Of a DNA stretch of 64,000 nt, positions 11,198 through 24,616 are shown piece by piece. The translations under genes and the position numbers were made by a program. The stretch's first letter is position 1; each line of letters opens with the position of its first letter. Source of the stretch: Candidatus Eiseniibacteriota bacterium (GTDB taxonomy: Bacteria; Eisenbacteria; RBG-16-71-46; JAFGJU01); NCBI GenBank assembly GCA_020349905.1, contig CP070702.1, positions 1,900,047 to 1,964,046 on the forward strand, read 5' to 3'. Below the pieces are notes generated by a model, which did no database searches, was not told the origin of the DNA, and saw only the letters and a list, made by a program, of their open reading frames with translations.

Positions 11198-12094
11198 TTA
11201 TTTCCCAGTGAGGTGGGTAGATTCTCCGACCTCGGGAGCAGGATGGGCTTTCCCCTCGACCCGCACCGAGCGCACGAAGCCCATCATGGAGAGAAGAAAC
11301 ACCGCGGCCATAAGAACCACGAAACTTATCGGCAACGACACTTCCGTGCCCGCCTTGATGCCGAACAGGTTACCCCCGGCCACACTCGTGGCATTTGTGA
11401 CGGCGTGGGCGACCATTCCGTAGTAGACGCTGCCTCCCCTGGAGACCAGGTAGCCCAGAAGCCCTCCCACGAAGAAGATGGGCACGAAGCGCCATGGGTC
11501 GTGAAGCAGGGCAAAGAGCAGCGACGTGAGCAGTATGCCGCGCCACCTTCCGTACCTCTTCTCGAGAGAGCCCTGAAGGAATCCTCTGAAGAGTAGCTCC
11601 TCTGCCACGGCGGCCGCCACCACGACTCCGCTGGCCACCCTCAGGAATTCCAGGAAGCTGCGCACCCTGGTTATCTCGAGAAGAAACTCCTGAATCCAGA
11701 CAGGCATGGGGAATATCTTATCGATGAGACTGGCCACGTTGTACTGAAGCACGATGAAGCTGAAGGACGCGCCGATACAGAACAGTACGCCGCCCGCGCG
11801 AACCGAAGACAACCTGAGCGAGACCTTCACCGATGAGGTGAGCCACCGGGCCGCCAGCAGGATGGGAACGATACCGCCTACCACGAAGGCCGGAGCCACG
11901 GCGTAGTGGATGCCCAGGATCGCGGAGAAGACCAGGGTGAAAACTTGAAGCAGCAAGAAGCATATGAGCACGACTGCCACGGCAAAGAGTGGACGCGGAT
12001 ACGGACCCGGTCCCTCCTGGGTCTCGTGGGCCTGCGGGACCGTGCTCGGGCGCGTTGGTGTCGATTCAGGCCTCTGACCTATCTCTTCTCGCAA
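11198..12094 (-). CDS. CPBP-family (CAAX/Abi) intramembrane metalloprotease
   Basis: Motifs 'EELLFRGFLQ' (EExxxR), 'FALLH' and 'HAVTN' in successive TM helices; start uncertain because the ORF overlaps the upstream gene by 29 nt. Confidence 0.75.
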   Translation of the reverse strand: MREEIGQRPESTPTRPSTVPQAHETQEGPGPYPRPLFAVAVVLICFLLLQVFTLVFSAILGIHYAVAPAFVVGGIVPILLAARWLTSSVKVSLRLSSVRAGGVLFCIGASFSFIVLQYNVASLIDKIFPMPVWIQEFLLEITRVRSFLEFLRVASGVVVAAAVAEELLFRGFLQGSLEKRYGRWRGILLTSLLFALLHDPWRFVPIFFVGGLLGYLVSRGGSVYYGMVAHAVTNATSVAGGNLFGIKAGTEVSLPISFVVLMAAVFLLSMMGFVRSVRVEGKAHPAPEVGESTHLTGK

Positions 12095-12902
12095 CGATGT
12101 TCCTTTTCTCGAGCGCTCGCTCGCTAATCAGTCTTTCCTCGTGTGAAGAGAGCTTTCCCTCGCGGAACGAAAGGCCGAAACACTCCTCGAAGCCCTCCTT
12201 CAGCACCCGCCCTGCCTCTTCGAAGGAAGGCACGCATTCCAGAAGCTCGGACAGAGACACACAACCTTCCCTCACGGCTAAGAAATCGGCACGCGGGACC
12301 CCGGGCCTGAGAAGTTCCAGGACGCGAAGGTGGGCCGGGCCGACCATTACGGAGCCGTGCGAGAAGTACGTTCGGTCCGAAACCCTGTGGGCGCAGCCGG
12401 CCAGCTTGCGGCCCTCAACCGCTATCTCGTTCTCCGCTCCCCTCGTGAAGCAGAGAGGAGAGTTCCCTGCACGCACGCGCGCCTCTCTTCCCCTCACGCG
12501 CGCCTCTCTCCCCCTGGAGACGACCGACGCCTCAACTCCCAGGCGCACGAGAGCACGCCCGACCGCGGCCGCGGCCAACCCTGCGAATTCTCTGGGCCGC
12601 AAAGGGAGGGGTAGGAACTCCTCTCTTGCCACGAAGCAGTACGTGATTTCCTCCCAGTGCAGCAGGGCACCTCCGCCCGTTACTCGTCGCACTACGTCAA
12701 CGCCCGCGGCTTTGCAGTTCTCAACGTCCAGGAGATCCGGGCCCTGCGAGTAGCCGAGTGAGACAGCTGGAGGCTCCCACCTATAGATTCTCAGGGCGGC
12801 GCCCACAGTCCCATCCTTGCACCCATCGAGAAGGATTTCGTCGACGGCCATGTTGCGGAATCCGTCTGCTGGCTCGCAGAGAAGAAGACGAGGTGTTTCC
12901 AT
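12066..12902 (-). CDS. Lipoate-protein ligase family protein (LplA catalytic domain only; LipM/LipL-like octanoyl/lipoyl transferase)
   Basis: 'ALRIYRWEPPAVSLGYSQ' and overall BPL/LPL catalytic domain pattern; start placed at ATG 12902 (METPRLLL); contains an in-frame 21-bp tandem duplication (RGREARV x2). Confidence 0.7.
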   Translation of the reverse strand: METPRLLLCEPADGFRNMAVDEILLDGCKDGTVGAALRIYRWEPPAVSLGYSQGPDLLDVENCKAAGVDVVRRVTGGGALLHWEEITYCFVAREEFLPLPLRPREFAGLAAAAVGRALVRLGVEASVVSRGREARVRGREARVRAGNSPLCFTRGAENEIAVEGRKLAGCAHRVSDRTYFSHGSVMVGPAHLRVLELLRPGVPRADFLAVREGCVSLSELLECVPSFEEAGRVLKEGFEECFGLSFREGKLSSHEERLISERALEKRNIVARRDRSEA

Positions 12903-13047
12903 TGTACCTTCAGACTCTGAGCAGATGAGAAAGCCCGCGATAACCCATCTACGTCTGCGGAACCCGGAGTCCGAGTGGCCAGGTAAAAGTAGCTGCTCGT
13001 CAGTGCGTCGGGAAGGCAAAAGCCCTGAGGAGCGGAACAAGGGAGAA

Positions 13048-13683
13048 CTAGCGGATGAGCTCTATCCCGAGCGAAGCGGGCCAATCCACCAACAGGAACA
13101 GAAGCCTTCCCACCAGAAGAGAAATCCTGGCCATCACGGTGAAACCGTAGGAGGCCCCGAAGGAGACCATCAAGAACCAGATGCCCAACTTGGCAGTGGC
13201 TCCCAGCGCTCCCTTGTGTTCTTTGGAAAAGAAAAAGTAGACCAGGGTAGCGAGGACCCCGACCACGATGACCCAGTTCGTGAACGTGTCTATCAGAGAC
13301 CCTGCCTTCAGCGGAAGCATGTTCGCCTGTATCTGGGCAACCAGGTCTCCCTGCGCGAAGCCGATGATGGCCAGTCCCGAAAAAGTCCCCACCATGAGCC
13401 CGATGGCCCATCTACTGAGCCAGTTGAAGCGGACCGTGAATCTGGAGAACATCAGCACTCCCAGCAGAAAGGGGATGACCAGCTTGTAGTCGCCAGCAAG
13501 GAGCGGTCTCCACAGGTTGGGAAGGAAGACGTTCTGGAACTCTATGGCCACTATGTAGCCTGCTGCGATACCCACGAATATGTGCTCGGCGAACTTGTAT
13601 ACAGGATTGTCCCTGTAGAGAAAGCTGAAGATGGCAATCGTGAGGAGGGCCGCCATGGTGTGTAGGACTGGAGACGGAAGCAA
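13048..13683 (-). CDS. Polytopic integral membrane protein (module B' of duplicated pair), function unknown
   Basis: 211 aa, ~6 hydrophobic helices; weak similarity to the 14506..15126 product (e.g. 'PNLWRPLLAGDYKLVIPFLLG' vs 'SKDWPYAFPLLAGLGFMLTVG'); 4-nt spacing to upstream gene. Confidence 0.55.
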   Translation of the reverse strand: MLPSPVLHTMAALLTIAIFSFLYRDNPVYKFAEHIFVGIAAGYIVAIEFQNVFLPNLWRPLLAGDYKLVIPFLLGVLMFSRFTVRFNWLSRWAIGLMVGTFSGLAIIGFAQGDLVAQIQANMLPLKAGSLIDTFTNWVIVVGVLATLVYFFFSKEHKGALGATAKLGIWFLMVSFGASYGFTVMARISLLVGRLLFLLVDWPASLGIELIR

Positions 13684-13687
13684 GTCG

Positions 13688-14509
13688 CTACCTCCTCTTG
13701 CCTCCGGCCTTCACGGACCGGAAGTAGAGCACGTTTCCGACTATTATGAACACTATGATGGCCAGGTGACCCAGCGATTGGGCGTCCATGCCTCTCGTTG
13801 CGGTTCCCGCCACTCCGACGAGCTTCTCGTACTCGGCCGCGCCCGCAAGCCCACCCAGCAGGCCCACGAGCTGCCCGGACTGGTAGTAGGGATAGTATTC
13901 CGGAGCGCTCACCGCGGTGCATCCCGCAGCTATCGTCACGTGAAACCTGGACTGCACCTGCTGCACCCATTCCTTGGTCCCCGGGTAGCCGGCCGAAATG
14001 TTGACTATCATCGCCACGTCGCTGAAGTTGCGTACGCCGTCCATTATCGGCAACTCGCTCACAGGAGTCCCATAGAAATCAGCAGGAAAGGTGCCGGGGA
14101 TGCTCTTTCCCAAACTCACCATCACGACTTCGCGTCCCTCCTTATAGCCCAGGTTCACGAAGTCCACCCCGTACTTCTTTCCGAACTTCTCTTCTCCGAC
14201 CCTGGTCAGCACCTCCTCCAACAGAGGTGGCCCTCCGGGCCACAGGCACGCCCCTATCACCTTGATGTCACGCGAGAACAGGTGGTTTAGCGTAGCGTAG
14301 CTCATTGGATGCACTTCGGGAAGAGTTGCGGGGTCGTAGTCGCAGGCGAAGTAGACCGTCGAGCCCTCGGGCACCCGGTCGATGGCATCGTAGGCTCCCA
14401 GCACTTCCTTGCTGACCCGAATGGGCAGCCCCAGCGGGATTATCAGAGGTATCAGGACCACCAGCAGGATGACAAGGAACACGTATCTTCTATCGAAACC
14501 TTCCATCAA
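13688..14509 (-). CDS. Membrane protein: N-terminal TM, ~200-aa extracytoplasmic domain, C-terminal TM (module A'), function unknown
   Basis: 273 aa; same topology and faint sequence echo of the 15193..16137 product; start overlaps upstream stop (ATGA). Confidence 0.55.
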   Translation of the reverse strand: MMEGFDRRYVFLVILLVVLIPLIIPLGLPIRVSKEVLGAYDAIDRVPEGSTVYFACDYDPATLPEVHPMSYATLNHLFSRDIKVIGACLWPGGPPLLEEVLTRVGEEKFGKKYGVDFVNLGYKEGREVVMVSLGKSIPGTFPADFYGTPVSELPIMDGVRNFSDVAMIVNISAGYPGTKEWVQQVQSRFHVTIAAGCTAVSAPEYYPYYQSGQLVGLLGGLAGAAEYEKLVGVAGTATRGMDAQSLGHLAIIVFIIVGNVLYFRSVKAGGKRR

Positions 14510-15126
14510 TCACCGCCGAGATAATTGCGTTCGATGCCCAGGATGACCTTGAGCCCCGTTGATATCGCGCCCAACGCTGCCCCTATGAGGATGGCCCGCT
14601 TGGCGGCCATCTGCGGGGCGTTCATAATCCAGTCCGATATTACGGGGAGCTTGTCCCATATTTCGGTGCCGACGGGGACCCTGCCCAGCATCACGATGAC
14701 GGCCGCCACGGCCAGCAGGCCGGCTTCGAGCGTCCTTATTCGGAAGGCCCTGAAGGCCGCAGAGGCGATGAAGAACGCCAGAAGCGAGAACATGGTGCCC
14801 GACATGGGAGCGTAGGCGTAGAGGTAGAAATCGCTGAAGAGGGTTCCGTTTCCAACGCCGAACACGACTCCGACGGTCAGCATGAAGCCCAGACCCGCCA
14901 GAAGGGGGAACGCGTACGGCCAGTCCTTAGAGCGCTTGGATATCTTCTCTCCGTTGATGCGCACAATGTTGGCCACACCCAGCACGTAAGCAAAGGCCAC
15001 CACTATGATGGCCCATTGTTGGAGCATCTCTCCGAAGCCGGTGACGGAGGGATGAGGAACGAAATACTCTATCACCATGAAGGAGCCGAAGATGGCCGTT
15101 ATGATGAGCGGGACCTCTCGCCTCAA
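14506..15126 (-). CDS. Polytopic integral membrane protein (module B), function unknown
   Basis: 206 aa, ~6 TM; paralogue-like to 13048..13683. Confidence 0.55.
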   Translation of the reverse strand: MRREVPLIITAIFGSFMVIEYFVPHPSVTGFGEMLQQWAIIVVAFAYVLGVANIVRINGEKISKRSKDWPYAFPLLAGLGFMLTVGVVFGVGNGTLFSDFYLYAYAPMSGTMFSLLAFFIASAAFRAFRIRTLEAGLLAVAAVIVMLGRVPVGTEIWDKLPVISDWIMNAPQMAAKRAILIGAALGAISTGLKVILGIERNYLGGD

Positions 15127-15192
15127 TCCGTTTCCCCTTTCAGAACGAACCTTCTCACGTTGTCCGACTTGAAGCGGGTATCCATTGTTCCC

Positions 15193-16137
15193 CTATTGCA
15201 CGGTGAGCCACCGGGTGAAGGCCGTCACCCCGAAGGTCTCCAGGATGGCTCCCACTATCAACGCCCCCATCACGAACACTTTCATCCAGTCCGAACCCTT
15301 CAAAGTTCCCACCAGCTTCGGTTCGTCGGAGAGGTAGGCCGTGGCAGCGAAAAACTCCTCGCCTATCAGGGTGTAGTCGCACGCCACTACGAAAAAGGGA
15401 AGCTGGTGTATGTTTGCGGTTCCTGCTATCTGAATGGCACCCGTGCTGAAGCCGGTCTCGGCAAGGATCAATGACTCGGCGAAGAAGGAGCCCAGAAAAA
15501 GGTTGGCGGCCGGCTTCTCCCTCAGCATTATGCCGTCCACGCCGGCAGTGAAGGCGAACTGTTCATCGGAGAGATATCTTATGTTGTCGGGGTTGTATGC
15601 ATCCGGATGCCCGGCGTCCAGGTAGCCCTGCTTCACGGTTTCCTCTGCCAGAGGGACCACGAAGGCCTTGCAGACAGGCACGATGAGGGGGGTCTCATAC
15701 CGGGCCACGAGCTTGGCCACGGTTCCCAGAATGACCATGCTGTAAATCGTCTGTATGTTGTTGACGTCGTCGATGCCGGGCACGTACAGCACGGCCTTCC
15801 CCATCTCGGTGGCCCTTCCGATGGCTTCCTCGATGGCGCTGAGGCCGGTTATCTTCCTGACGTAAAGGGATCTCCCCCTCACCGCTTTCCTGATGAACAG
15901 CAGAACAAGGAAGAAGAAGAGCCCGATTATGACGAGCAAGTTCACCCGGCGGGGATCAAACCACACCGCGGCCTGGCTTGCGGGGTCGGCTGGTGCACCT
16001 GCCTGGGCACTTGTGGTGTCGGGAAGAATCTCTTCCGGAGAAGCGTCAGATTCGGCACGGGCCATCGCGGGCGTCCCGGCCAGGCTGGCAAAGAGGAGAA
16101 ACGTGGCGATGATGAGAAGACACTCGACTCTGTTCAC
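15193..16137 (-). CDS. Membrane protein with cleavable-looking signal peptide, low-complexity linker, TM anchor and ~200-aa domain plus C-terminal TM (module A), function unknown
   Basis: 'LLIIATFLLFASLAGTPAMARA' signal; 'LLVIIGLFFFLVLLFI' TM; C-terminal TM 'VFVMGALIVGAILETFGV'. Confidence 0.55.
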   Translation of the reverse strand: MNRVECLLIIATFLLFASLAGTPAMARAESDASPEEILPDTTSAQAGAPADPASQAAVWFDPRRVNLLVIIGLFFFLVLLFIRKAVRGRSLYVRKITGLSAIEEAIGRATEMGKAVLYVPGIDDVNNIQTIYSMVILGTVAKLVARYETPLIVPVCKAFVVPLAEETVKQGYLDAGHPDAYNPDNIRYLSDEQFAFTAGVDGIMLREKPAANLFLGSFFAESLILAETGFSTGAIQIAGTANIHQLPFFVVACDYTLIGEEFFAATAYLSDEPKLVGTLKGSDWMKVFVMGALIVGAILETFGVTAFTRWLTVQ

Positions 16138-16168
16138 TGTCCCTACCAGGTCCGCTTTCTATGCCACA

Positions 16169-17299
16169 CTACCCCTCTATCATCTCCACGTTGGCTCTGG
16201 GCAACGTGGCCCTGCTTCCGTCTTCAAACTCCACCTCCAGCACCCTCACCTTGGCTTCAGTTTCCAGAACTCGCAGCTCCGACGGGAGGTCGACGACCTT
16301 TCCCAGCTTTCCGAAGTGCGGCTCTCTGATTACGCGGATGGCACCCCCGACCTCGAGGCCCGATGCGGAGAAGATACTGCCGGTGTCCCCGGCCGACCTC
16401 CCGGCGCCGTCTGCGGCCACGATGACCTCGGGTCTCATGACCCCAGCCCTTATCTGGGTGGCCCCGCTCATGGAAGCGCGTTTTCCCTCCAGTGACTTGA
16501 GAAGTGAGAACGTCTTCTCCGCCATTCTCATTCTCCCGAACCCTTCGGTCACTATGAGGGATATCCCTTTCTCCTCGGAGCCAGTTATGGCGACACCCAG
16601 ATCGTAGCCCAGGAACTGCCTCAGGTCCTTGTCGTCTATTCCGCCGGCCACGACTCCCCTTACCCCCAGGGAGGCAGCCCTGGTGAGAAACTCGCTGTCC
16701 ACCTTCGAGCCACCGATGAGAATCTTGTCGCGGCAGGATTCGTCCAGACTCTTGACGGCGAGCGGCTCGTCGCCCGCGCTCACAAGTAGCTTGATCTCTC
16801 CCCACGTCTCCCCACCGATTCCGAAGATGCCCTGGATGAAGGAGCCCTCGGTCTCCACCTTGACTCCCTCCTTCTCCATGCGCTCTATCACTCTCCCGTC
16901 CAGGTATGCGTGCACCTCGACAGGAATGGGAGGCTCTCGAAGGATGGCCTGGCCCGTGATGGTAGACGCGCTCTCGAGCGTTCCGTCGACGGGACTCTTG
17001 CACCTGGACTTGAACAGGCCGAAGAAGCTGCTGCTCATCGCGAAGACTTCGCCCTTCTGGAGCGGAGAACCGATGGGCTTCGTGAGAGCTCCCCCGATGT
17101 CTTCGGGCAGAAGGCTCAGGATGTTCGCAACGTTTACGGTCTGCACGTTTCCCGGCAGCTCTGTGCGGGCCACCACCTGCTCGGCACTGACCTGGCTTCC
17201 TTCCTCCACCAGGACGGAGCCAGAGAGAGGAAGTCTCCTCTCTCTCACGAGTCTAGTCCTGGCAGTTACCGTGACCCCTGGTGTGTAAGCGTGAGCCAC
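16169..17299 (-). CDS. Hypothetical soluble protein (376 aa), no family recognised; GTG start
   Basis: Long ORF with GGAGG RBS 9 nt upstream of GTG 17299; glycine-rich 'KILIGGSKVD...VRGVVAGGIDDKD' segment; codon usage consistent with neighbours. Confidence 0.5.
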   Translation of the reverse strand: MAHAYTPGVTVTARTRLVRERRLPLSGSVLVEEGSQVSAEQVVARTELPGNVQTVNVANILSLLPEDIGGALTKPIGSPLQKGEVFAMSSSFFGLFKSRCKSPVDGTLESASTITGQAILREPPIPVEVHAYLDGRVIERMEKEGVKVETEGSFIQGIFGIGGETWGEIKLLVSAGDEPLAVKSLDESCRDKILIGGSKVDSEFLTRAASLGVRGVVAGGIDDKDLRQFLGYDLGVAITGSEEKGISLIVTEGFGRMRMAEKTFSLLKSLEGKRASMSGATQIRAGVMRPEVIVAADGAGRSAGDTGSIFSASGLEVGGAIRVIREPHFGKLGKVVDLPSELRVLETEAKVRVLEVEFEDGSRATLPRANVEMIEG

Positions 17300-17333
17300 T
17301 TTCTGATTACCTCCGTATCGCGCGTCACCCGCG

Positions 17334-19184
17334 CTACTTTCTTTCCGGGTAAACGTTCAGAGCGGCGTTCCATTCGCTCAGTTTCTTGACCCTTTCCCCC
17401 TCGTTCGAGGGCAACTGGAAAGGCCGCCGTCCCCTGCAGTCCAAGACGACTCCCACGACGCCGCCGTCGACTTTCGTCTCGAGTGACCTGCCGCTGCCCG
17501 CCCCCACGTCGAATCCTTTCGATGGGTTGAGCACGAGTCTGCCACGTTCTCCCACGCCCAGAGGTAAGACCGCCATCTGGCCGAACTTGAGCGAGAGACT
17601 CTCGGTCGTACCCTTGGCCTTCGCGGCTTTTCCTTCAGAGGCAGCGCCCTCTTCCCTCTCCAGTCTCACCTGCAGACACTCGACCCCCTCCTTGCCCGCG
17701 CCGATCGGTGCCACGCAGGGACCGAGATGAATCAGGCAGTCCTTCTTGAACACTTCCGTGGCGGCTTTGGGATGCACCTCGGAGAGCACTCCGAGCTGCG
17801 GCATCATGAATATGCTGTCCACCGCCAGGTGCGTCACGCACTCAGGCAAAAAGCCGTCTATCAGCATGAAGGCCGCCTGTGCCCTGCGAGGAGCGTGAGA
17901 GAGCACTCCCCCGCTTCCTACGAGCATGCCGAGCTGCCTGAGATCCACGAGGGTCTCTCCGCTGGAACTCTGCTCGAACGTGTCGGAGATTGTCCTCTCC
18001 TGCTGCACGCCCTTCAGTCCCACGGCCAGGGACTTGTGTTGCTCGAAGGCCAGCCTCAAGGCCTCCCGGGCGATGCCCTGCTCTATCATCAGCTCTTCCA
18101 GGCTCTGGGGAATCGTGGTGGGCCTTATCATCTTGTTCTTGATCCTGTTCCTGAGGTCTTTCTCCTCCACGCGGAACGGTATCCACCTCATTATGTTCTC
18201 CAGCCCCGCTTCGGCCAGCACGTTGGAGATGCTGTAGCTCATGCCCAGGTTCGCGCTGACCGTCCTGTTGAACACGGTCTGGAACACCGAGAAGACGTCC
18301 GTGGTGGCGCCACCGATGTCCACGCCGATGGCCTGGATTCCTTCCTCTCTGGCGATGGTCTCTATGATTTTGCCCACCGCCGCAGGGGTAGGCATCACGG
18401 GCACGGGCGTCCAGTTCATGAGTTTCTTATACCCCGGCGCGTGTGCCATGACGTGTTCCATGAAGAGGTCGTGTATCCTGTGCCGGGCGGGCTGAAGGTT
18501 CTCCCTTTCCAGAACCGGGCGGATGTTCTCGGTGAGAACGAGCGCGGTTTTCTCTCCCAGTCTCTCGGAGACGATGTCCCTGGCGTCCACGTTCCCCGCG
18601 TAAATGACGGGCAGCATGTAACCCGCTCCCAGCCGCGCCTTCGGGTCCGCCGCGGAAAGGAGTTCGGCCAATTCGGCCACGTGCGCCGTCGTTCCGCCGT
18701 CGATGCCTCCTGAGAGAAGTATCATGTCGGGTCTCAACTGTCTTATGCGACGTATCTTCTCGTGAGGCAGCCGCCCGTCGTTCGAGGCGATCACGTCCAT
18801 CACGATGGCTCCCGCTCCCAGCGCGGCCCTCTGCGCACTCTCACCGGTCATGGCCTTCACGACTCCAAACACCATCATCTGGAGCCCGCCGCCTGCGCTG
18901 GAAGTGGAGATGTAGATGTCCGCTCCCTCGCCGTCTTCTGCCTTGGACAGAATGCTCTCGCCACTGAGCAACTTTCGCCCCGCCAGCTCCTCCACCTCCC
19001 GGACCGCATTGAGGACCCCCTTCGTCACGTCTTCGAACGGCGCCTCTACGGTGGTGGGCGCCTCTCCACGCACGATGAGCCGGTACTCGTCACCCTTCTT
19101 CTCTATCAAAATGGCCTTGGTCGTCGTGCTTCCGCAGTCGGTGGCCAGTATCGATGTGACATCCTCGGGCTTTGGAACGCTCAT
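17334..19184 (-). CDS. GlmL/MutL-family ASKHA-fold ATPase (glutamate-mutase-L-like, hydantoinase branch) with ~150-aa C-terminal extension
   Basis: Phosphate-1 motif 'ATDCGSTTTKAIL', 'SSAGGGLQMMVFG...AQRAALGAGA', 'DMILLSGGIDGGT', 'MPTPAAV', second-half 'GVDIGGATTDVFSV', all in the order expected for GlmL/MutL-family proteins; 616 aa vs ~460 aa for classical GlmL. Confidence 0.7.
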   Translation of the reverse strand: MSVPKPEDVTSILATDCGSTTTKAILIEKKGDEYRLIVRGEAPTTVEAPFEDVTKGVLNAVREVEELAGRKLLSGESILSKAEDGEGADIYISTSSAGGGLQMMVFGVVKAMTGESAQRAALGAGAIVMDVIASNDGRLPHEKIRRIRQLRPDMILLSGGIDGGTTAHVAELAELLSAADPKARLGAGYMLPVIYAGNVDARDIVSERLGEKTALVLTENIRPVLERENLQPARHRIHDLFMEHVMAHAPGYKKLMNWTPVPVMPTPAAVGKIIETIAREEGIQAIGVDIGGATTDVFSVFQTVFNRTVSANLGMSYSISNVLAEAGLENIMRWIPFRVEEKDLRNRIKNKMIRPTTIPQSLEELMIEQGIAREALRLAFEQHKSLAVGLKGVQQERTISDTFEQSSSGETLVDLRQLGMLVGSGGVLSHAPRRAQAAFMLIDGFLPECVTHLAVDSIFMMPQLGVLSEVHPKAATEVFKKDCLIHLGPCVAPIGAGKEGVECLQVRLEREEGAASEGKAAKAKGTTESLSLKFGQMAVLPLGVGERGRLVLNPSKGFDVGAGSGRSLETKVDGGVVGVVLDCRGRRPFQLPSNEGERVKKLSEWNAALNVYPERK

Positions 19185-19218
19185 GTTCTTCCCTTTCCCT
19201 GTTCCTTCCTTTCAGCTT

Positions 19219-19641
19219 TCAGCTCTGTCTGCGGCTCTCCTTTTCTCGCTGGCGCTCTATCTGCTTTTCCCTCTTCTTCTCCCTCTTTCTCTGGGCCCGT
19301 TCCTCCTTCTGCTGCTCCTCCAAGTCCTCCACCCTCTGGATCAGTTTCTCCACGTTATCTCTGTTCTCCATGAGAGTGTAGAATCTGTCGTAGCTCTTGA
19401 TGTCGAAGAAGGTTTTCACGAAGGGCTCCAGAAACACCAGGAGTTGACTTCCAAGGAAGCTCAAGGGCTTCGAGGATTCCAGAAAGAATATCGCGGGCAC
19501 GCCGAGACCCATCCGGACCACTCTGTTGGCCACGGCATCGATGAGGGCATCGTCGTCTTTCTCCTCCCCGTTTGCCTCAGGTTCTTCCTTAAGGAACGGC
19601 CGTAACCCTCTATCCACGTTGGGACTCCTTTCCCATTGCAT
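19219..19641 (-). CDS. Small protein with one hydrophobic/amphipathic segment and a highly charged K/R/E-rich coiled-coil C-terminus; start uncertain (possibly ATG 19512)
   Basis: 'GVPAIFFLESSKPLSFLGSQLLVFLEPFV' followed by 'EDLEEQQKEERAQRKREKKREKQIERQREKESRRQS'; sits in operon between membrane gene and GlmL-like gene. Confidence 0.4.
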   Translation of the reverse strand: MQWERSPNVDRGLRPFLKEEPEANGEEKDDDALIDAVANRVVRMGLGVPAIFFLESSKPLSFLGSQLLVFLEPFVKTFFDIKSYDRFYTLMENRDNVEKLIQRVEDLEEQQKEERAQRKREKKREKQIERQREKESRRQS

Positions 19642-20053
19642 GCGTCACGAAATCCACCACCTCGCCCCTGTTCCCCGAGACCAGCAGCCTCATTCCTCTG
19701 TAATGCTCCAGCCAGGAGCGTCTTCTAAACGGACTCAGGCTCACGCCCCCCGAGTCAACCCAGAAGCTCTTGAAGCTACTCCACTCCTTCTTCTGGGTGC
19801 CGAAGAGACCTCTTATCTCCACACCCTTTGAGCTCAACGAATAAGTCGAAGCGAAGAAGTAGTTGTGAAGAGAGCCGACAAGTATCACCACCGAGAGCAG
19901 GGCCAGAAACGGATCGTGCCAAAGAAGGAGCACGATGAGGCCGAAGCCCACAATGACGGCGACGACAAATGTGCATTTTCTGAGGTCCATTGTACACGGT
20001 CTGAGACGCCAGGTCAACGTCAGACGCGGCTCGTCTGTAGGAGTTTCTTCCAT
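19610..20053 (-). CDS. Small membrane protein, two TM helices plus bacterial PH-like (bPH_2/YdbS-like) domain; true start probably ATG ~19990
   Basis: 'FVVAVIVGFGLIVLLLW...LALLSVVILVGSL' twin TM then 'YSLSSKGVEIRGLFGTQKKEWSSFKSFWV' resembling bPH_2. Confidence 0.4.
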   Translation of the reverse strand: MEETPTDEPRLTLTWRLRPCTMDLRKCTFVVAVIVGFGLIVLLLWHDPFLALLSVVILVGSLHNYFFASTYSLSSKGVEIRGLFGTQKKEWSSFKSFWVDSGGVSLSPFRRRSWLEHYRGMRLLVSGNRGEVVDFVTHAMGKESQRG

Positions 20054-20110: not shown

Positions 20111-21607
20111 CTACCACTTGAGCCTGAGCTCGCGCGCGGCCTTGCCCTCGTCGAGCCTGCCCACAGGCGTGGCGACCGGCGCCAGCTTCACGACCTCGGG
20201 CGTTTTCCGGGCCTCCTCCGCAATGGCCTGCATGGCCTCCGCAAACCTGTCCAGCTCCCTCTTCGTTTCGGTCTCGGTCGGCTCTATCATCAGTGCTTCG
20301 TCCACTATGAGGGGAAAGTACACCGTCGGCGCGTGGAATCCGTAGTCAAGAAGTCTCTTTGCCACGTCCAGCGTGCGCACGCCGGCCTCCTTCTGCCTGG
20401 AGCCGGACAGCACGAACTCGTGCATGCAGGGCCTGTCGTAGGGTAACTCGAAATGCGGCGCCAGAAGAGCCTTCAGGTAGTTGGCGTTCAGGGTTGACTC
20501 TCTGGAAACCGCTTCCAGCCCCTCCCCTCCCAGAGACAGTATGTATGCGTATGCTTTCACCATGACGGCGAAGTTCCCGTAGAAACTGTGAATGCGCCCG
20601 ATGCTCTTTGGCTCGTGGTCTCTGAGCACGAAGCGCGTGCCCTCCTTTTCCACCCGGGGCACAGGAAGAAACGGCCGCAGCTTCTCGTTCACCCCCAGAG
20701 GGCCGGAACCGGGCCCGCCGCCCCCGTGAGGTGTGGAGAAGGTCTTGTGCAGATTGATATGCACGACGTCGAATCCCATGTCGGCCGGCTTCGCTACCCC
20801 CAGAAGGGCATTGAGATTCGCCCCGTCAAGGTACATGAGTCCGTCCAGGCCGTGCAGCACCTCCGCCAGCTCCAGTACTTCTTCTTCGAAGAGCCCGAGC
20901 GTGTTGGGATTGGTGAGCATCAGGGCGGCCGTGCGCTCGTCAGCCACTTGCCTCAGCGACTCTGCGCTCACGCAGCCGTTCTTTCCTGACTTCACCTCGG
21001 CCACCCTGTATCCTGCCAGGTTCACGCTGGCCGGGTTGGTTCCGTGAGCCGAGTCCGGGATTATGACCGTGTCTTTCTCGTTCTTCTTGTCTCGGTGATA
21101 GGCAGCCACCATCATCATTCCGGCCAGCTCACCGTGAGCCCCCGCAGCCGGGTGCAGACAGAATTGGCTCATCCCGGTGACTGCCCGGAGTGCCTCGTCC
21201 AGAAGACACATAAGCTCCAGGGCACCCTGAGCTCCGACCAACGGACTCAAGGGATGGAGACCAGCGAAGCCGGGCCAGGAGGCCACTTCCTCGTTGAGCT
21301 TGGGATTGTATTTCATCGTGCAGGAGCCCAGAGGATACATGCCCTTGTCCACGTGGTAGTTCATCGAGGAGAGTCGCGTGAAGTGTCTCACCACTTCCGG
21401 CTCGCTGAGCTCGGGAAGGCCCTGACTCTCCTTGCGCAAAAGATGCGAGGGAATCGCATCTTCCGCGCGCACGGCGGGCACGTCCAGTGCCGGGGCCACG
21501 AACGAGCCGTGCCCCTGGCTGTGAAGCTCCGACAGTAGTGGCTCGGCCTCGAGGCGCGGACCCTCCCCTTGTGGCTCACCGTGTGTTTTTCTCTTCAGCT
21601 CGTCCAT
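20111..21607 (-). CDS. gcvPB: Glycine dehydrogenase (aminomethyl-transferring) subunit 2
   Basis: 498 aa; 'PEVSEPEVVRHFTRLS', PLP-enzyme pattern, 'FHAPTVYFPLIVDEALMIEPTETE' typical of GcvPB. Confidence 0.9.
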   Translation of the reverse strand: MDELKRKTHGEPQGEGPRLEAEPLLSELHSQGHGSFVAPALDVPAVRAEDAIPSHLLRKESQGLPELSEPEVVRHFTRLSSMNYHVDKGMYPLGSCTMKYNPKLNEEVASWPGFAGLHPLSPLVGAQGALELMCLLDEALRAVTGMSQFCLHPAAGAHGELAGMMMVAAYHRDKKNEKDTVIIPDSAHGTNPASVNLAGYRVAEVKSGKNGCVSAESLRQVADERTAALMLTNPNTLGLFEEEVLELAEVLHGLDGLMYLDGANLNALLGVAKPADMGFDVVHINLHKTFSTPHGGGGPGSGPLGVNEKLRPFLPVPRVEKEGTRFVLRDHEPKSIGRIHSFYGNFAVMVKAYAYILSLGGEGLEAVSRESTLNANYLKALLAPHFELPYDRPCMHEFVLSGSRQKEAGVRTLDVAKRLLDYGFHAPTVYFPLIVDEALMIEPTETETKRELDRFAEAMQAIAEEARKTPEVVKLAPVATPVGRLDEGKAARELRLKW

Positions 21608-21641
21608 TCCGCCTCTCTATCTCGTCTGTCCATGCTCCGCG

Positions 21642-23003
21642 CTACGCCCGCGGCAAACGCTCTGAGGCCCGGCGCGTTGCATCGACGAAGCACTCTATCT
21701 CTTTCCGGGTCCTCTTCTCCGTCACGGCCACAAGGAGAAGCTCCGCACGGCCGGAGAAGCGGGAAAGCGGCACGCCCCCCAGTATCCCCTCGTCAAAAAG
21801 CGCCTCGACCAGCGCCTCCGCGCTCACCGGACACTCCAGCAGAAATTCCTTGAAGAAGGGCCTGTCGTACTTGAGCGAGAATCCCTTCAGCTGAGAAAGG
21901 CACTCGGCGGCGAAGTGACTCCTCGAAAGGCACTGCTCTGCCACCTCTCTCATCCCCTCCTCTCCCAGAAGCGAGACGTGGACGGTGGCGGCAAGTGCGA
22001 CCAGTGCCTGATTCGTGCATATGTTGGAGGTGGCCTTCTCGCGCCTTATGTGCTGCTCCCTGGTCTGAAGCGTCAGAACGAAGCCGCGCCTTCCGCGCAC
22101 GTCTGAAGTCAGCCCCACGATTCGGCCGGGCAGCTTTCTCACGTAGTCCTTTCGGGCAGCGAAGAAACCCAGCAGCGGTCCCCCGAAACTCATGGCGTTA
22201 CCCAGACCCTGTCCCTCGCCCACAACGATGTCCGCCCCGTAGGTGGACGGAGGCTCAAGCAGGGAGAGTGAAATCGGGTCCACGCAAGAGACGAGGAGGG
22301 CCTTGCTCGAGGACAGGAGCCTTCCTATACCCGAAGTCTCCTCCACGACCCCAAAGAAATTGGGCTGCTGGTGTATGAAGCACGCCGCCCCCAGGCCCAG
22401 GGCAGATTCCAGCTCTGCCAGGTCCGTCACCCCAGCGTCTTCAGGAATCTCGACCATCTCGATGTTCGTCGGAGTGCAGTATGTCTTGAGGACGTCTACG
22501 TAGTGCGGATTAAGACAGGCGGAAACCAGAATCCGACGCTCGCCGGTGGCGCTCACCGCCAGAAGCGCTGCCTCCGCCACGGCCGTGGCGCAGTCGTACA
22601 TGGACGCGTTGCACACGTCCATGCCCGTAACAGCGCACATCAGGGACTGAAACTCGAAAATGGCCTGAAGCGTTCCCTGGCTCACCTCCGCCTGATAAGG
22701 CGTGTAGCACGTCGAGAACTCGCTCCGCGAAAGCAGGTGACGCACGGCGGCGGGTACGAAGTGGTCGTAGACTCCTGCCCCGGCAAAACACGAGACTCCA
22801 TCCGGATCGATGTTCCTGAGAGACAGCTCTCTGAGGCGCCTTCTCACGTCCAGCTCGGACATTGCCCCAGGTAGTTCTATCCTGGCCTTGGCCCTCAGCG
22901 CAGCCGGAACCGGGTCGAGCAGGTCTTCCATCGACCCGACGCCGATCGCATGCAGCATCTCCTTCCGTTCGGCTTCGCTTCGCCCCACGTAGGAGGTCAT
23001 CAT
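21642..23003 (-). CDS. gcvPA: Glycine dehydrogenase (aminomethyl-transferring) subunit 1
   Basis: 453 aa; 'TCYTPYQAEVSQGTLQAIFEFQ' GcvPA signature region; 4-nt overlap with gcvH. Confidence 0.9.
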   Translation of the reverse strand: MMTSYVGRSEAERKEMLHAIGVGSMEDLLDPVPAALRAKARIELPGAMSELDVRRRLRELSLRNIDPDGVSCFAGAGVYDHFVPAAVRHLLSRSEFSTCYTPYQAEVSQGTLQAIFEFQSLMCAVTGMDVCNASMYDCATAVAEAALLAVSATGERRILVSACLNPHYVDVLKTYCTPTNIEMVEIPEDAGVTDLAELESALGLGAACFIHQQPNFFGVVEETSGIGRLLSSSKALLVSCVDPISLSLLEPPSTYGADIVVGEGQGLGNAMSFGGPLLGFFAARKDYVRKLPGRIVGLTSDVRGRRGFVLTLQTREQHIRREKATSNICTNQALVALAATVHVSLLGEEGMREVAEQCLSRSHFAAECLSQLKGFSLKYDRPFFKEFLLECPVSAEALVEALFDEGILGGVPLSRFSGRAELLLVAVTEKRTRKEIECFVDATRRASERLPRA

Positions 23004-23386
23004 AGCTCCTTACCTACGAGCTTCTCGTAGTCCTGAGGACCCAGAAGAGAACCAAGCTCACTCGTGTCAGACATCTTTATCTTTATCATCCAGCCGTCCT
23101 CGTACGGGCTCTTGTTTACGATACCCGCGTCCGTGGAGAGCGCCTCGTTCACGGCAGCTATCTCTCCCGAAACCGGAGAGAAGAGGTCGCTCACGGTCTT
23201 GACCGCCTCCACCACTCCGAAGGGCGTAGCGGCTTTGGCCTCATCTCCCACCGAAGGAAGCTCCACGTAGACGACGTCACCAAGCTCACGCTGCGCGTAG
23301 TCGGTAATTCCCACTACGGCCGTATCCCCTTCGATGCGCACCCACTCATGCTGCTCGGTGTACTTGAGATTCTCCGGAATCTTCAT
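23000..23386 (-). CDS. gcvH: Glycine cleavage system H protein (lipoyl carrier)
   Basis: 128 aa; 'VGITDYAQRELGDVVYVELP' and lipoyl-lysine context 'VEAVKTVSDLFSPVSGE'. Confidence 0.9.
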   Translation of the reverse strand: MKIPENLKYTEQHEWVRIEGDTAVVGITDYAQRELGDVVYVELPSVGDEAKAATPFGVVEAVKTVSDLFSPVSGEIAAVNEALSTDAGIVNKSPYEDGWMIKIKMSDTSELGSLLGPQDYEKLVGKEL

Positions 23387-23428
23387 CTGCTGCCTTCCTT
23401 TCGCCCGGTGTTCGTGTCGATAGTGCGA

Positions 23429-24520: not shown

Positions 24521-24616
24521 TGGCCTTCTCAGGCAGTCTCTTATGATACTCCGTCCTGCGGGACCGCCGCCTTCCCCACGTCTCTTCACTGCCCGCAGTT
24601 CAGGTACAATCACATC

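What the first reader, a model, noticed from the sequence alone, without database searches (positions are those of the whole stretch)
13048..20053. Eight-gene membrane operon built around an orphan GlmL/MutL-family ASKHA ATPase with a tandem-duplicated pair of membrane proteins
The 616-aa protein at 17334..19184 carries the full motif set of GlmL/MutL (DxGSTxTK, SSAGGGL..AALGAGA, LLSGGxDGG, MPTPxAV, VDxGGATTDV) plus a ~150-aa C-terminal extension. GlmL classically sits between the B12-dependent glutamate mutase subunits. No mutase, B12-binding (DxHxxG) or radical enzyme is present here.

Instead it is translationally linked to seven other genes on the same strand: a 2-TM bPH-like protein, a charged coiled-coil protein, an unassignable 376-aa soluble protein, and four membrane proteins. 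Gaps are 4-66 nt and one junction is an ATGA overlap. The four membrane proteins look like a duplicated two-gene module, A-B-A'-B'. A/A' are bitopic with a ~200-aa extracytoplasmic domain. B/B' are 6-TM proteins of ~210 aa.

None of the membrane components matches a family I recognise. The cluster sits between the glycine-cleavage operon and an LplA-like ligase and CPBP protease. This looks like an undescribed ATP-dependent membrane machine (assembly, reactivation or transport) using a GlmL-type chaperone-like ATPase.
Basis: partly seen in the sequence, partly recalled or inferred. Interest (0 to 1): 0.8.

Follow-up and report, generated by a model that had tools for sequence, protein, structure and literature searches.

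The report
Conserved ATPase-plus-membrane-module system, function unknown
Eight co-directional genes encode a very highly conserved actin/kinase-fold ATPase, a partner protein and a four-protein membrane unit; the set recurs across many mostly uncultured bacterial phyla, matches no described system, and is probably a new kind of ATP-driven membrane machine.

Summary
The eight genes are real, and the cluster is conserved far beyond this genome, a Candidatus Eiseniibacteriota MAG.

- **ATPase (g3).** The 616-aa protein is a full-length PF13941 (MutL) ATPase. It scores below every curated GlmL threshold and has no B12 mutase nearby. It defines a separate ~600-aa clade with 65-82% identity across phyla, more conserved than the neighbouring glycine-cleavage P protein.
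- **Partner (g4).** In 57 of 74 assessable loci g3 is followed by the 376-aa protein. Its model shows barrel-sandwich, swivelling β/β/α and KOW domains. Two natural g3-g4 fusions exist.
- **Membrane genes (g5-g8).** The claimed A-B-A'-B' duplication is not supported by BLASTP or profile comparison, and the two "A" proteins have opposite topologies. The true unit is the whole four-gene block. It is all-or-none, keeps a fixed order and occurs in 1-3 tandem copies elsewhere.
- **Context.** The cluster sits inside a gcvT-H-PA-PB … lplA gene array. gcvPB lies directly upstream of g3 in 42 of 67 loci.
- **Prior knowledge.** No structure, Pfam function or paper describes the system.

My best reading, which is inferred, is a cytoplasmic g3/g4 ATP engine driving modular membrane units, most likely for transport. 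The function remains unproven.

The parts
19610..20053 (-). g1: 147-aa protein with two membrane spans followed by a weakly bPH-like cytoplasmic domain
   Evidence: ORF and hydropathy. The bPH_6 match is below threshold (E = 0.051). 4 of 35 orthologues hit bPH_6 (best 1.8e-5) and 4 hit YcxB. Orthologues sit upstream of g2-g3 in 39 of 82 loci, median identity 35%.
19219..19641 (-). g2: 140-aa protein (start uncertain; orthologues have a median of 127 aa) with a conserved amphipathic core (P.IFFLE..KPL) and a charged K/E/R tail
   Evidence: No Pfam or NCBIfam family. Immediately upstream of g3 in 61 of 77 assessable loci.
17334..19184 (-). g3: 616-aa ASKHA-fold ATPase of the MutL/GlmL family (PF13941), in a distinct ~600-aa clade with a 133-aa C-terminal extension
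   Evidence: PF13941 E = 4.7e-127 over residues 12-483. Below the GlmL, Or-4 and TIGR01319 cut-offs. More than 8000 homologues, and 65-82% identity in 82 loci from many phyla. Nucleotide-binding motifs are invariant. No solved-structure relative by sequence.
16169..17299 (-). g4: 376-aa soluble partner with an N-terminal barrel-sandwich-hybrid β region, a swivelling β/β/α domain and a C-terminal KOW/SH3-like domain
15193..16137 (-). g5: 314-aa DUF6754 protein, made of a signal peptide, a short variable ectodomain, a membrane span, a conserved cytoplasmic α/β domain and a second membrane span
14506..15126 (-). g6: 206-aa polytopic membrane protein (about 5-6 spans) with no family
   Evidence: No Pfam or NCBIfam match, and none for any of 37 orthologues. 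No PDB relative. Always follows g5.
13688..14509 (-). g7: 273-aa protein with its N terminus inside, a membrane span, a periplasmic domain of about 200 aa, a second span and its C terminus inside
   Evidence: No Pfam family for any of 36 orthologues. No PDB relative. Not related to g5 by BLASTP or hhalign.
13048..13683 (-). g8: 211-aa polytopic membrane protein (about 6 spans) with invariant polar residues (D25, N26, Y29, E33, R81, R91, Q117, R186, R193)
   Evidence: No Pfam family. No PDB relative. Not related to g6.
20111..24613 (-). Context: gcvT, gcvH, gcvPA and gcvPB directly upstream on the same strand, 57 nt from g1. Probably the same transcription unit.
   Evidence: ORFs, homology. gcvPB lies within 3.2 kb upstream of g3 in 42 of 67 loci. 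Promoter-like site at 24644-24617, 11 of 12 matches plus TG.
12066..13040 (-). Context: LplA-like lipoate/octanoate protein ligase gene directly downstream of g8
   Evidence: PF21948 E = 6.5e-24. An LplA-like gene is present in 26 of 82 g3 loci. It lies directly after g3 in L039, between gcvPB and g2 in L036, and after the second module in L044.

Best explanation
**What it is (well supported).** This is an ancient, widespread multi-protein system of the inner membrane.
- Its cytoplasmic part is a pair: g3, a MutL-family ASKHA ATPase with an intact nucleotide site, and g4, which has a barrel-sandwich region, a swivelling domain and a KOW domain.
- Its membrane part is an indivisible four-protein unit. 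g5 has a conserved cytoplasmic domain and a variable ectodomain. g7 has a periplasmic domain. g6 and g8 are polytopic.
- Two small membrane-associated accessory proteins, g1 and g2, complete the set.
- It is not a glutamate-mutase accessory protein.

**How it most likely works (inferred).**
1. g3 binds and hydrolyses ATP, with the domain closure typical of ASKHA proteins.
2. g4, bound or fused to g3, passes this movement through its swivelling domain to the cytoplasmic DUF6754 domain of g5.
3. From g5 the movement reaches the g6/g8 helices.
4. g7 and the g5 ectodomain handle the cargo on the periplasmic side.

One g3/g4 engine would serve one to three paralogous membrane units. This resembles the way one ECF energising module serves several substrate-specific components. 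I therefore read it as a new type of primary-active transporter or translocator.

Its embedding in the gcvTHP…lplA array, and its position next to peptide transporters, suggests a role in amino-acid (glycine) catabolism or in supplying that pathway. The cargo is unknown.
For: **Shown**
- Family assignment and intact ATP motifs of g3.
- Conservation over 82 loci: g3 median 69% identity and g4-g8 53-58%, against GcvPB 56%, GcvPA 51% and GcvT 48% in the same loci.
- g3-g4 adjacency in 57 of 74 loci, and two natural g3-g4 fusions.
- The g4 swivelling domain matches the mobile domains of PEP-utilising enzymes and of DdrA.
- g5-g8 are all-or-none: 31 of 50 loci have 4 of 4 downstream of g3 and 19 of 50 have none, with no partial sets. 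Their order is invariant in g5-anchored loci.
- Whole-module tandem copies (2-3) stand behind a single g3/g4.
- g5 and g7 have opposite, complementary topologies.
- g5 homologues carry variable ectodomains, including fn3.
- gcvPB, lplA and peptide-transporter (Opp, OPT) genes are recurrent neighbours.

**Inferred:** physical coupling of g3/g4 to g5, transport as the output, and the link to glycine metabolism.
Against: - No component resembles a known transporter. Pfam, NCBIfam and PDB profile searches are all negative.
- No ASKHA-powered transporter is known.
- The swivelling domain of g4 lacks a conserved His or other obvious phospho-acceptor.
- About 40% of g3 loci and about half of g5-anchored loci do not hold the other half within 10 kb. 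Genome-level co-occurrence could not be tested.
- The most conserved part of g5 could not be modelled, and its fold search gave nothing.
- The gcv linkage is absent in Zixibacteria, Ignavibacteria, Gemmatimonadota and Planctomycetota loci, so it may be inherited synteny rather than a functional link.
Confidence: 0.35

Rival explanations
1. A membrane-anchored reactivase or cofactor-exchange chaperone. g3/g4 would work like DdrAB, PduGH, EutA or GlmL, using ATP to pry open a partner enzyme and swap a damaged cofactor or subunit. The client would be either the g5-g8 complex itself or the neighbouring glycine decarboxylase, for example exchanging PMP for PLP after abortive transamination.
For: - g3 belongs to the same Pfam family as GlmL.
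- gcvPB lies immediately upstream in 42 of 67 loci. In several WOR-3 loci gcvPB alone stays beside g2-g3.
Against: - No B12, radical or other cofactor-dependent enzyme is in the cluster.
- g5-g8 have no conserved Cys or His clusters that suggest a cofactor.
- No reactivase is known or needed for the P protein.
- 65-82% identity across phyla is far more constraint than I would expect for a chaperone of this kind. That expectation rests on my own knowledge, not on a test here.
- This reading does not explain 1-3 tandem membrane modules or the variable ectodomains.
Confidence: 0.17
2. A membrane-tethered cytoskeletal or scaffolding system. g3 would be a polymerising or ring-forming actin-fold ATPase, anchored through g5 (cytoplasmic domain), g7 (periplasmic domain) and polytopic g6/g8. 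This is comparable to MreB-RodZ-MreC-MreD or PilM-PilN-PilO. It would organise envelope synthesis or a surface structure.
For: - Sequence conservation of g3 is extreme, with a plateau near 67-70% between phyla. From my own knowledge, this is typical of proteins whose whole surface is constrained.
- The part list is analogous: an ASKHA protein, span-domain-span proteins on both faces of the membrane, and small polytopic proteins.
- Envelope-related genes lie next to or inside some modules: a GT2 glycosyltransferase and DUF2270 between g4 and g5, LiaF-like and STAS genes between g6 and g7, plsX-fabH after g3 in WOR-3, and lptB, polysaccharide-export and LPG-synthase genes beside orphan modules.
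Against: - g3 matches no actin-like family. MreB-like_C gives E = 0.019, below threshold. Its relatives are enzymes and chaperones, not filaments.
- Those neighbours are heterogeneous and lineage-specific.
- Nothing here tests polymerisation.
Confidence: 0.15
3. Two unrelated systems that merely sit together. g1-g4 would be a soluble ATP-dependent enzyme, hydantoinase-, oxoprolinase- or acetone-carboxylase-like, tied to glycine metabolism. g5-g8 would be an independent membrane complex.
For: - g3 also passes the Hydant_A_N threshold (27.1 against 25.2 bits).
- 19 of 50 g3 loci have no module within about 10 kb.
- About 18 of 32 long g5-anchored loci show no g3/g4, and their neighbours are unrelated housekeeping genes.
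- In WOR-3, g2-g3 sit between gcvPB and plsX without g4-g8.
Against: - The adjacency recurs in Eisenbacteria, WOR-3, Zixibacteria, Ignavibacteria, Gemmatimonadota, Sumerlaeota and Armatimonadota with different outer flanks and different module copy numbers. It even occurs with the module upstream of g3 (L076, L082) or divergent from it (L124).
- Clustering all ORFs of 166 loci found no other recurrent partner for either half.
Confidence: 0.15
4. One reading: a GlmL-type chaperone serving a membrane machine made of an internally duplicated two-gene module (A-B-A'-B').
For: Sizes and rough architectures are similar: two span-domain-span proteins of 273 and 314 aa, and two polytopic proteins of 206 and 211 aa.
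Against: - BLASTP gives E >= 1 for both pairs.
- hhalign on 36-39-sequence profiles gives 1.7% and 0.2% probability.
- The g5 domain is cytoplasmic and the g7 domain periplasmic.
- Duplications seen in nature always copy all four genes together.
- g3 fails the GlmL equivalog thresholds.
Confidence: 0.05

Closest known systems
GlmL / MutL, the accessory protein of glutamate (methylaspartate) mutase (Pfam PF13941; NCBIfam NF040745; TIGR01319), and the Or-4 protein of ornithine degradation (NF040744)
   Same: Same Pfam family over the whole 450-position model (E = 4.7e-127). Same ASKHA nucleotide-binding motifs.
   Different: - Scores are about half the equivalog cut-offs (236 against 475, 214 against 600) and below the TIGR01319 subfamily cut-off.
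- It is about 600 aa with a 133-aa C-terminal extension.
- It is never next to mutase subunits in the loci examined.
- It is instead paired with g4 and with membrane modules.
- It is far more conserved, 65-82% across phyla.
Diol or glycerol dehydratase reactivase DdrAB / PduGH, and EutA
   Different: - Here the swivelling domain is on a separate protein (g4), or fused C-terminally rather than inserted.
- There is no DdrB-like small subunit.
- There is no Pfam match to the DDR or EutA families.
- There is no B12 enzyme nearby.
- The partners are membrane proteins.
Mobile (swivelling) domain of PEP-utilising enzymes: PTS Enzyme I, PPDK, PEP synthase and rifampin phosphotransferase
   Different: - No conserved phospho-acceptor His. 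The equivalent position is variable (T, S, D or N).
- No ATP-grasp or PEP-binding domain.
- No Pfam PEP-utilizers match.
ECF-type and other ABC importers that share one energising module among several membrane components
   Same: Functional analogy only. One cytoplasmic ATPase set (g3/g4) stands beside 1-3 paralogous membrane units that differ most in their extracytoplasmic parts.
   Different: - No ABC ATPase and no Walker A/B or signature motif.
- No EcfT or S-component, or any ABC-2 or BPD permease family match.
- Each unit is four proteins of about 1000 aa in total.
MreB-RodZ-MreC-MreD and PilM-PilN-PilO
   Same: An ASKHA-fold cytoplasmic protein combined with single- or double-span proteins that carry cytoplasmic or periplasmic domains, plus small polytopic proteins.
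   Different: No sequence-family relationship to any of them. g3 belongs to an enzyme/chaperone branch of the ASKHA superfamily, not to the actin-like filament formers.
Hydantoinase A, 5-oxoprolinase and the acetone carboxylase β subunit
   Same: g3 also passes the Hydant_A_N threshold and weakly hits Hydantoinase_A. These are ATP-dependent ASKHA enzymes.
   Different: Only the N-terminal subdomain matches. There is no HyuB-like partner, and the MutL model explains the whole core much better.

Membership tests
MutL/GlmL superfamily (Pfam PF13941) | Full-length match to the PF13941 model above the gathering score | tested here: met
   424.9 bits against a cut-off of 27. Residues 12-483 match profile positions 1-450 of 450.
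GlmL proper (methylaspartate mutase accessory protein, NF040745) and TIGR01319 glmL_fam | Score at or above the curated equivalog or subfamily cut-off | tested here: not met
   NF040745 235.6 < 475. NF040744 (Or-4) 213.6 < 600. TIGR01319 172.8 < 204.05.
GlmL proper | Gene located between or next to glutamate mutase S and E subunits, or another B12-dependent mutase or aminomutase | tested here: not met
   No such gene in the window within about 10 kb. No B12 motif in six frames. None in the Pfam-annotated neighbourhoods of L001, L002, L083, L085 and L086.
ASKHA ATPases | Conserved phosphate-1, phosphate-2 and adenosine motifs (DxGxT…, DxGG.T.D) | tested here: met
   D16-C-G-S-T-T-T-K23 and V288-D-I-G-G-A-T-T-D296 are invariant in 30 and in 82 orthologues.
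DdrA/PduG/EutA reactivases | Sequence membership (Pfam DDR or EutA), a swivelling domain inserted in the ATPase, a small β subunit, and an adjacent B12 enzyme | tested here: not met
PEP-utilising enzyme mobile domain (PF00391) | Conserved phospho-histidine in the GGxTSH motif | tested here: not met
ABC / ECF transporters | ABC ATPase with Walker A/B and signature motifs, and a permease of a known family | tested here: not met
   No ABC_tran, ABC-2, BPD_transp, EcfT or S-component match for any of the 8 proteins or their orthologues. There are only scattered hits at E > 0.005.
Rnf / Nqr complexes | RnfA/E-NqrD/E family polytopic subunits, an FMN-binding RnfG/NqrC and a cofactor-bearing RnfC/NqrA-F | tested here: not met
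DUF6754 (PF20539) | Match above the gathering score | tested here: met
   g5 scores 376.5 bits against 27, over residues 57-310. The family has no assigned function and no paper in the library.
Bacterial PH domain proteins (bPH) | Match to a bPH Pfam model above threshold | tested here: inconclusive
   The window's g1 scores 14 bits against a cut-off of 22. 4 of 35 orthologues hit bPH_6 (best E = 1.8e-5), 1 hits bPH_7 and 4 hit YcxB.
   BLASTP E >= 1. hhalign probability 1.7% and 0.2%. Opposite topology of g5 and g7.
Anti-phage defence systems (PADLOC) | Match to any defence-system model | tested here: not met
   The only hit is a Cmr5 match to the charged tail of g2 at E = 0.0039, which I take to be spurious.

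The most novel reading that the evidence does not exclude
This would be the first example of a primary-active membrane machine powered by an ASKHA-fold (actin/Hsp70/kinase-type) ATPase instead of a P-loop or P-type ATPase. A g3/g4 engine would drive interchangeable four-protein membrane modules. The system would be ancestral to the FCB superphylum and neighbouring phyla, and functionally coupled to the glycine cleavage system.
Probability: 0.3. Interest if true: 0.9.

Novelty: categorically new. Interest (0 to 1): 0.78.

Why it matters
- **Unusual conservation for proteins of unknown function.** Six of the eight proteins have no functional family, yet g3-g8 are as conserved as, or more conserved than, the glycine decarboxylase encoded next to them.
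- **Size and breadth.** g4 alone has 3179 clusters at 50% identity. The system occurs in Eisenbacteria, WOR-3, TA06, Zixibacteria, Fermentibacteria, Cloacimonadota, Ignavibacteria, Gemmatimonadota, Sumerlaeota and others. A core piece of the cell biology of many uncultured phyla is therefore undescribed.
- **If the engine-plus-module reading is right,** it adds a new energy-coupling principle for membrane processes.
- **It reassigns a large set of annotations.** These genes are labelled "glutamate mutase L" or "methylaspartate mutase" in public MAG records, and that label misleads metabolic reconstructions.
- **It is testable.** The recurrent link to gcvTHP and lplA gives a concrete physiological handle.

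Tried and rejected
- **Paralogy of the membrane proteins.** Tested by BLASTP and by profile-profile comparison; rejected.
- **Known-family searches.**
  - Pfam and NCBIfam on all eight proteins found only MutL, DUF6754 and a sub-threshold bPH match.
  - Pfam on every orthologue of g1, g6, g7 and g8 added only sub-threshold bPH and YcxB hits for a few g1 orthologues.
  - PADLOC gave nothing credible.
  - Rfam found no riboswitch or other RNA in the window.
- **PDB sequence and profile searches** for g3, g4, g5, g6, g7 and g8 returned no credible hit.
- **Literature** searches on DUF6754, PF13941, TIGR01319, 'glutamate mutase L', GlmL-like, 8xMP and phylum names plus glycine cleavage found nothing relevant.
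- **Additional recurrent partner genes.** All-against-all clustering of ORFs from 166 loci found none beyond g1-g8, gcv, lplA and uvrA. The other large clusters were antisense shadow ORFs.
- **An alternative engine next to orphan modules.** ptsI and pgi lie upstream in one clade, and heterogeneous housekeeping genes elsewhere. I judge this to be coincidental synteny.
- **g4 as a biotin or lipoyl carrier or a phospho-His carrier.** Rejected, because it has no conserved Lys at the hairpin and no conserved His.
- **Source contig.** Looking it up through the 100%-identical g5 entry P0241 failed, as it is not on record.

Full report
**1. Observation**

All eight ORFs exist on the minus strand at the stated coordinates. 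I call them:
- g1: 19610-20053
- g2: 19219-19641
- g3: 17334-19184
- g4: 16169-17299
- g5: 15193-16137
- g6: 14506-15126
- g7: 13688-14509
- g8: 13048-13683

Junctions between them are -32, 34, 34, 31, 66, -4 and 4 nt. The tight array does not stop at the finding's borders. gcvT, gcvH, gcvPA and gcvPB lie upstream, 57 nt before g1. An LplA-like gene and a CPBP protease gene lie downstream, 7 nt after g8. That makes 14 same-strand genes with no gap above 66 nt, followed by a 293-nt gap. The only strong promoter-like site on that strand outside a gene lies upstream of gcvT (24644-24617, 11 of 12 matches plus TG). Rfam finds no RNA element in the window. The g5 protein is 100% identical to a GenBank entry from a Candidatus Eiseniibacteriota MAG on a 2.69-Mb contig (P0241).

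**2. The ATPase (g3)**

g3 matches Pfam PF13941 (MutL) over the complete model, residues 12-483, E = 4.7e-127. These motifs are invariant or nearly so in 82 orthologues.

g3 nevertheless fails all three curated NCBI models:
- GlmL equivalog: 235.6 bits against a cut-off of 475
- Or-4: 213.6 against 600
- TIGR01319: 172.8 against 204

It is therefore a member of the MutL superfamily but not a GlmL. The extra C-terminal 133 residues are real but much less conserved than the core (35-52% against 72-82% identity to the window sequence). Neither the sequence nor a 30-sequence profile finds any PDB chain.

No mutase, B12-binding or similar gene lies within about 10 kb. The canonical B12 motif is absent from all six frames of the window. 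g3 passes the Pfam family threshold and fails the specific GlmL ones.

**3. Distribution and conservation**

The protein search hit its ceiling of 8000 homologues. The top 120 were all about 600 aa and at least 69% identical. The best 80 loci came from Eisenbacteria, WOR-3, TA06, Zixibacteria, Fermentibacteria, Cloacimonadota, Edwardsbacteria, Ignavibacteria, Gemmatimonadota, Sumerlaeota, Planctomycetota, Armatimonadota, Chloroflexota and Dormibacterota MAGs. g3 was 65-82% identical in them.

Median identity to the window proteins over these loci:

| Protein | Median identity |
|---|---|
| g3 | 69% |
| g5 | 58% |
| g4 | 56% |
| g6 | 55% |
| g7 | 54% |
| g8 | 53% |
| g2 | 47% |
| g1 | 35% |
| GcvPB | 56% |
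| GcvH | 54% |
| GcvPA | 51% |
| GcvT | 48% |
| LplA | 35% |

The uncharacterised proteins are thus as constrained as, or more constrained than, a central metabolic enzyme in the same genomes.

**4. Linkage**

In the 82 g3-anchored loci:
- g4 lies immediately downstream of g3 in 57 of 74 assessable cases.
- g2 lies immediately upstream in 61 of 77.
- gcvPB lies within 3.2 kb upstream in 42 of 67.
- The four membrane genes are all-or-none: 31 of 50 loci have all four downstream, 19 of 50 have none, and there are no partial sets.

In 80 metagenome loci anchored on g5, g6, g7 and g8 follow g5 in that order in all but two of the loci of at least 9 kb (L126 ends too soon after g6; L103 departs from the order). 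About 14 of the 32 such loci also hold g3 and/or g4.

The module sometimes lies upstream of g3 (L076, L082), divergent from it (L124), or separated from g4 by 3-5 kb of unrelated genes. The association is therefore maintained through rearrangements. Clustering all ORFs of 166 loci found no further recurrent partner apart from gcv, lplA and uvrA.

**5. The duplication claim**

g5 against g7 and g6 against g8 show nothing by BLASTP (E >= 1). Profile-profile comparison of 36-39-sequence alignments also shows nothing (probability 1.7% and 0.2%).

Positive-inside counts over the families place the g5 globular domain in the cytoplasm. K+R is 4.4 after the first span against 2.0 before it. The g7 domain is placed in the periplasm, with K+R 3.0 and 3.4 at the two termini against 1.7 and 1.2 on the domain side.

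What is duplicated in nature is the whole block. Two or three tandem g5-g6-g7-g8 copies, 40-55% identical to the window genes, stand behind a single g3/g4 in the following loci:
- WOR-3: L044
- Ignavibacteria: L047
- Zixibacteria: L052, L053
- Others: L058, L062, L080, L089, L093, L124 and L159

g5 homologues differ most in their N-terminal extracytoplasmic part. The window protein has about 35 low-complexity residues there. Others have an fn3 domain or about 650 residues of unknown sequence.

**6. g4**

The alignment shows no conserved Lys at the hairpin, so it is not a biotin or lipoyl carrier. It shows no conserved His at the position of the phospho-His of PEP-utilising enzymes.

A profile search of 1.84 billion representatives found 3179 clusters (925 at E <= 1e-30). 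Among them were two proteins of 995 and 1003 aa in which a complete g3, including its C-terminal extension, is fused to g4. Their g3 parts are 57% and 52% identical to the window g3. I take this as Rosetta-stone evidence that g3 and g4 work as one unit. The caveat is that these are gene calls from metagenomes.

**7. The membrane proteins**

g5 is DUF6754 (E = 6.7e-113). g6, g7 and g8 belong to no Pfam family, even when every orthologue is scanned. None has a PDB relative.

g1 has two spans and a domain that is only weakly bPH-like.

**8. Context**

The gcvTHP genes precede the system, and an LplA-like gene follows it, in Eisenbacteria and relatives. Other arrangements:
- Fermentibacteria L036 has gcvPB-lplA-g2-g3-g4.
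- WOR-3 L044 has an LplA-like gene after the second module.
- L039 has an LplA-like gene directly after g3.
- Several WOR-3 loci have a lone gcvPB, then g2-g3, then plsX-fabH.
- Opp or OPT peptide transporters follow in L083, L086 and the window.
- Zixibacteria, Ignavibacteria, Gemmatimonadota, Sumerlaeota and Planctomycetota loci lack the gcv link.

The link is too recurrent to ignore, but it is not universal.

**9. Mechanism**

*Shown:* a conserved ATP-site-bearing ASKHA protein; a partner with a swivelling domain that is adjacent to it or fused to it; an indivisible four-protein membrane unit with one cytoplasmic and one periplasmic domain; variable ectodomains; and variable module copy number against a single engine.

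*Inferred:* g3 and g4 form an ATP-driven engine that docks on the g5 cytoplasmic domain and drives conformational change in g5-g8. The most economical output is transport or translocation, with module copies providing different specificities. This parallels, but is not homologous to, shared energising modules in ECF and ABC systems.

I put about 0.35 on this reading. The rivals, detailed in their own section, are:
- a DdrAB-like reactivase or cofactor-exchange chaperone (0.17)
- a membrane-tethered cytoskeletal scaffold (0.15)
- two unrelated systems in synteny (0.15)

**10. Comparison with what is known, and novelty**

The ATPase is a new clade of a known superfamily. g4 combines known folds in an undescribed arrangement. 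g5 is a DUF. g1, g2, g6, g7 and g8 have no assigned family (g1 is only weakly bPH-like). No known system has this composition, and no ASKHA-powered membrane transporter is known to me. The paper library holds nothing on DUF6754, TIGR01319, PF13941 in this context, or GlmL-like proteins.

Public records label these genes 'glutamate mutase L' or 'methylaspartate mutase', which is misleading. I rate the system as categorically new in composition, with its function unproven.

Noticed in passing
window 12474-12515 (inside the LplA-like gene 12066-13040, minus strand): A perfect-frame 21-bp tandem duplication (2.0 copies, 95% match) gives the repeated peptide RGREARV-RGREARV inside the ligase catalytic domain.
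   Followed up: partly
window 12066-13040, minus strand: The longest LplA-like ORF starts at a TTG 7 nt after g8, but the Pfam ligase domain begins only at residue 59. An internal ATG (METPRLLL, about position 12902) may be the real start. That would leave a gap of about 145 nt after g8.
   Followed up: no
window 24644-24617, minus strand: A near-consensus sigma-70-like promoter (TTGACA, 16 nt, TATTAT, with an extended -10 TG) sits just upstream of gcvT. It is the only strong candidate on this strand outside a gene for the 14-gene array from gcvT to the CPBP gene. No glycine riboswitch was found.
   Followed up: partly
P0383 (995 aa) and P0453 (1003 aa), from the representative library: Natural fusions of a complete g3-type ATPase, including its C-terminal extension, to a complete g4.
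   Followed up: yes
L140, L144, L149, L158 (metagenome loci): In one clade the module is directly preceded by PTS Enzyme I (ptsI) and a PGI/SIS gene. A STAS-domain gene, a LiaF-like gene and a small ORF are inserted between g6 and g7. Enzyme I carries the same swivelling fold as g4. This may be coincidence.
   Followed up: partly
L047:11823-12233 (Ignavibacteria): A 136-aa gene lies between g3 and g4, in a locus where tblastn found no g1 or g2. It weakly matches the Pfam 'octameric membrane protein' family 8xMP (E = 1.4e-6, just below the cut-off). It shows no similarity to g2.
   Followed up: partly
L024 and six similar WOR-3 loci (L025, L029, L032, L033, L034, L045): A lone gcvPB-like gene, with no gcvPA, gcvH or gcvT within 10 kb, stays immediately upstream of g2-g3. 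plsX-fabH follow g3 in L024, and ORF clustering finds plsX-like and fabH-like genes in 6-7 loci. g4-g8 are not in these loci.
   Followed up: partly
L077:13012-15747 and L077:15925-18660: Two tandem 911-aa DUF6754 proteins each have an N-terminal region of about 650 aa that matches no Pfam family.
   Followed up: no
window 5699-8608 and 8637-10580, minus strand: A 969-aa protein has a C-terminal FlgD_ig-like domain, just below the Pfam cut-off (23.4 against 27 bits). From my own knowledge, such domains occur at the C termini of secreted proteins of this group. An OPT-family oligopeptide transporter lies just downstream of the array.
   Followed up: no
L083 and L086 (between g4 and g5): Lineage-specific insertions separate g4 from the membrane module. 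L083 has a GFO/IDH/MocA oxidoreductase, an unknown 295-aa protein and DUF2270. L086 has DUF2270, an unknown 137-aa protein and a GT2 glycosyltransferase.
   Followed up: no
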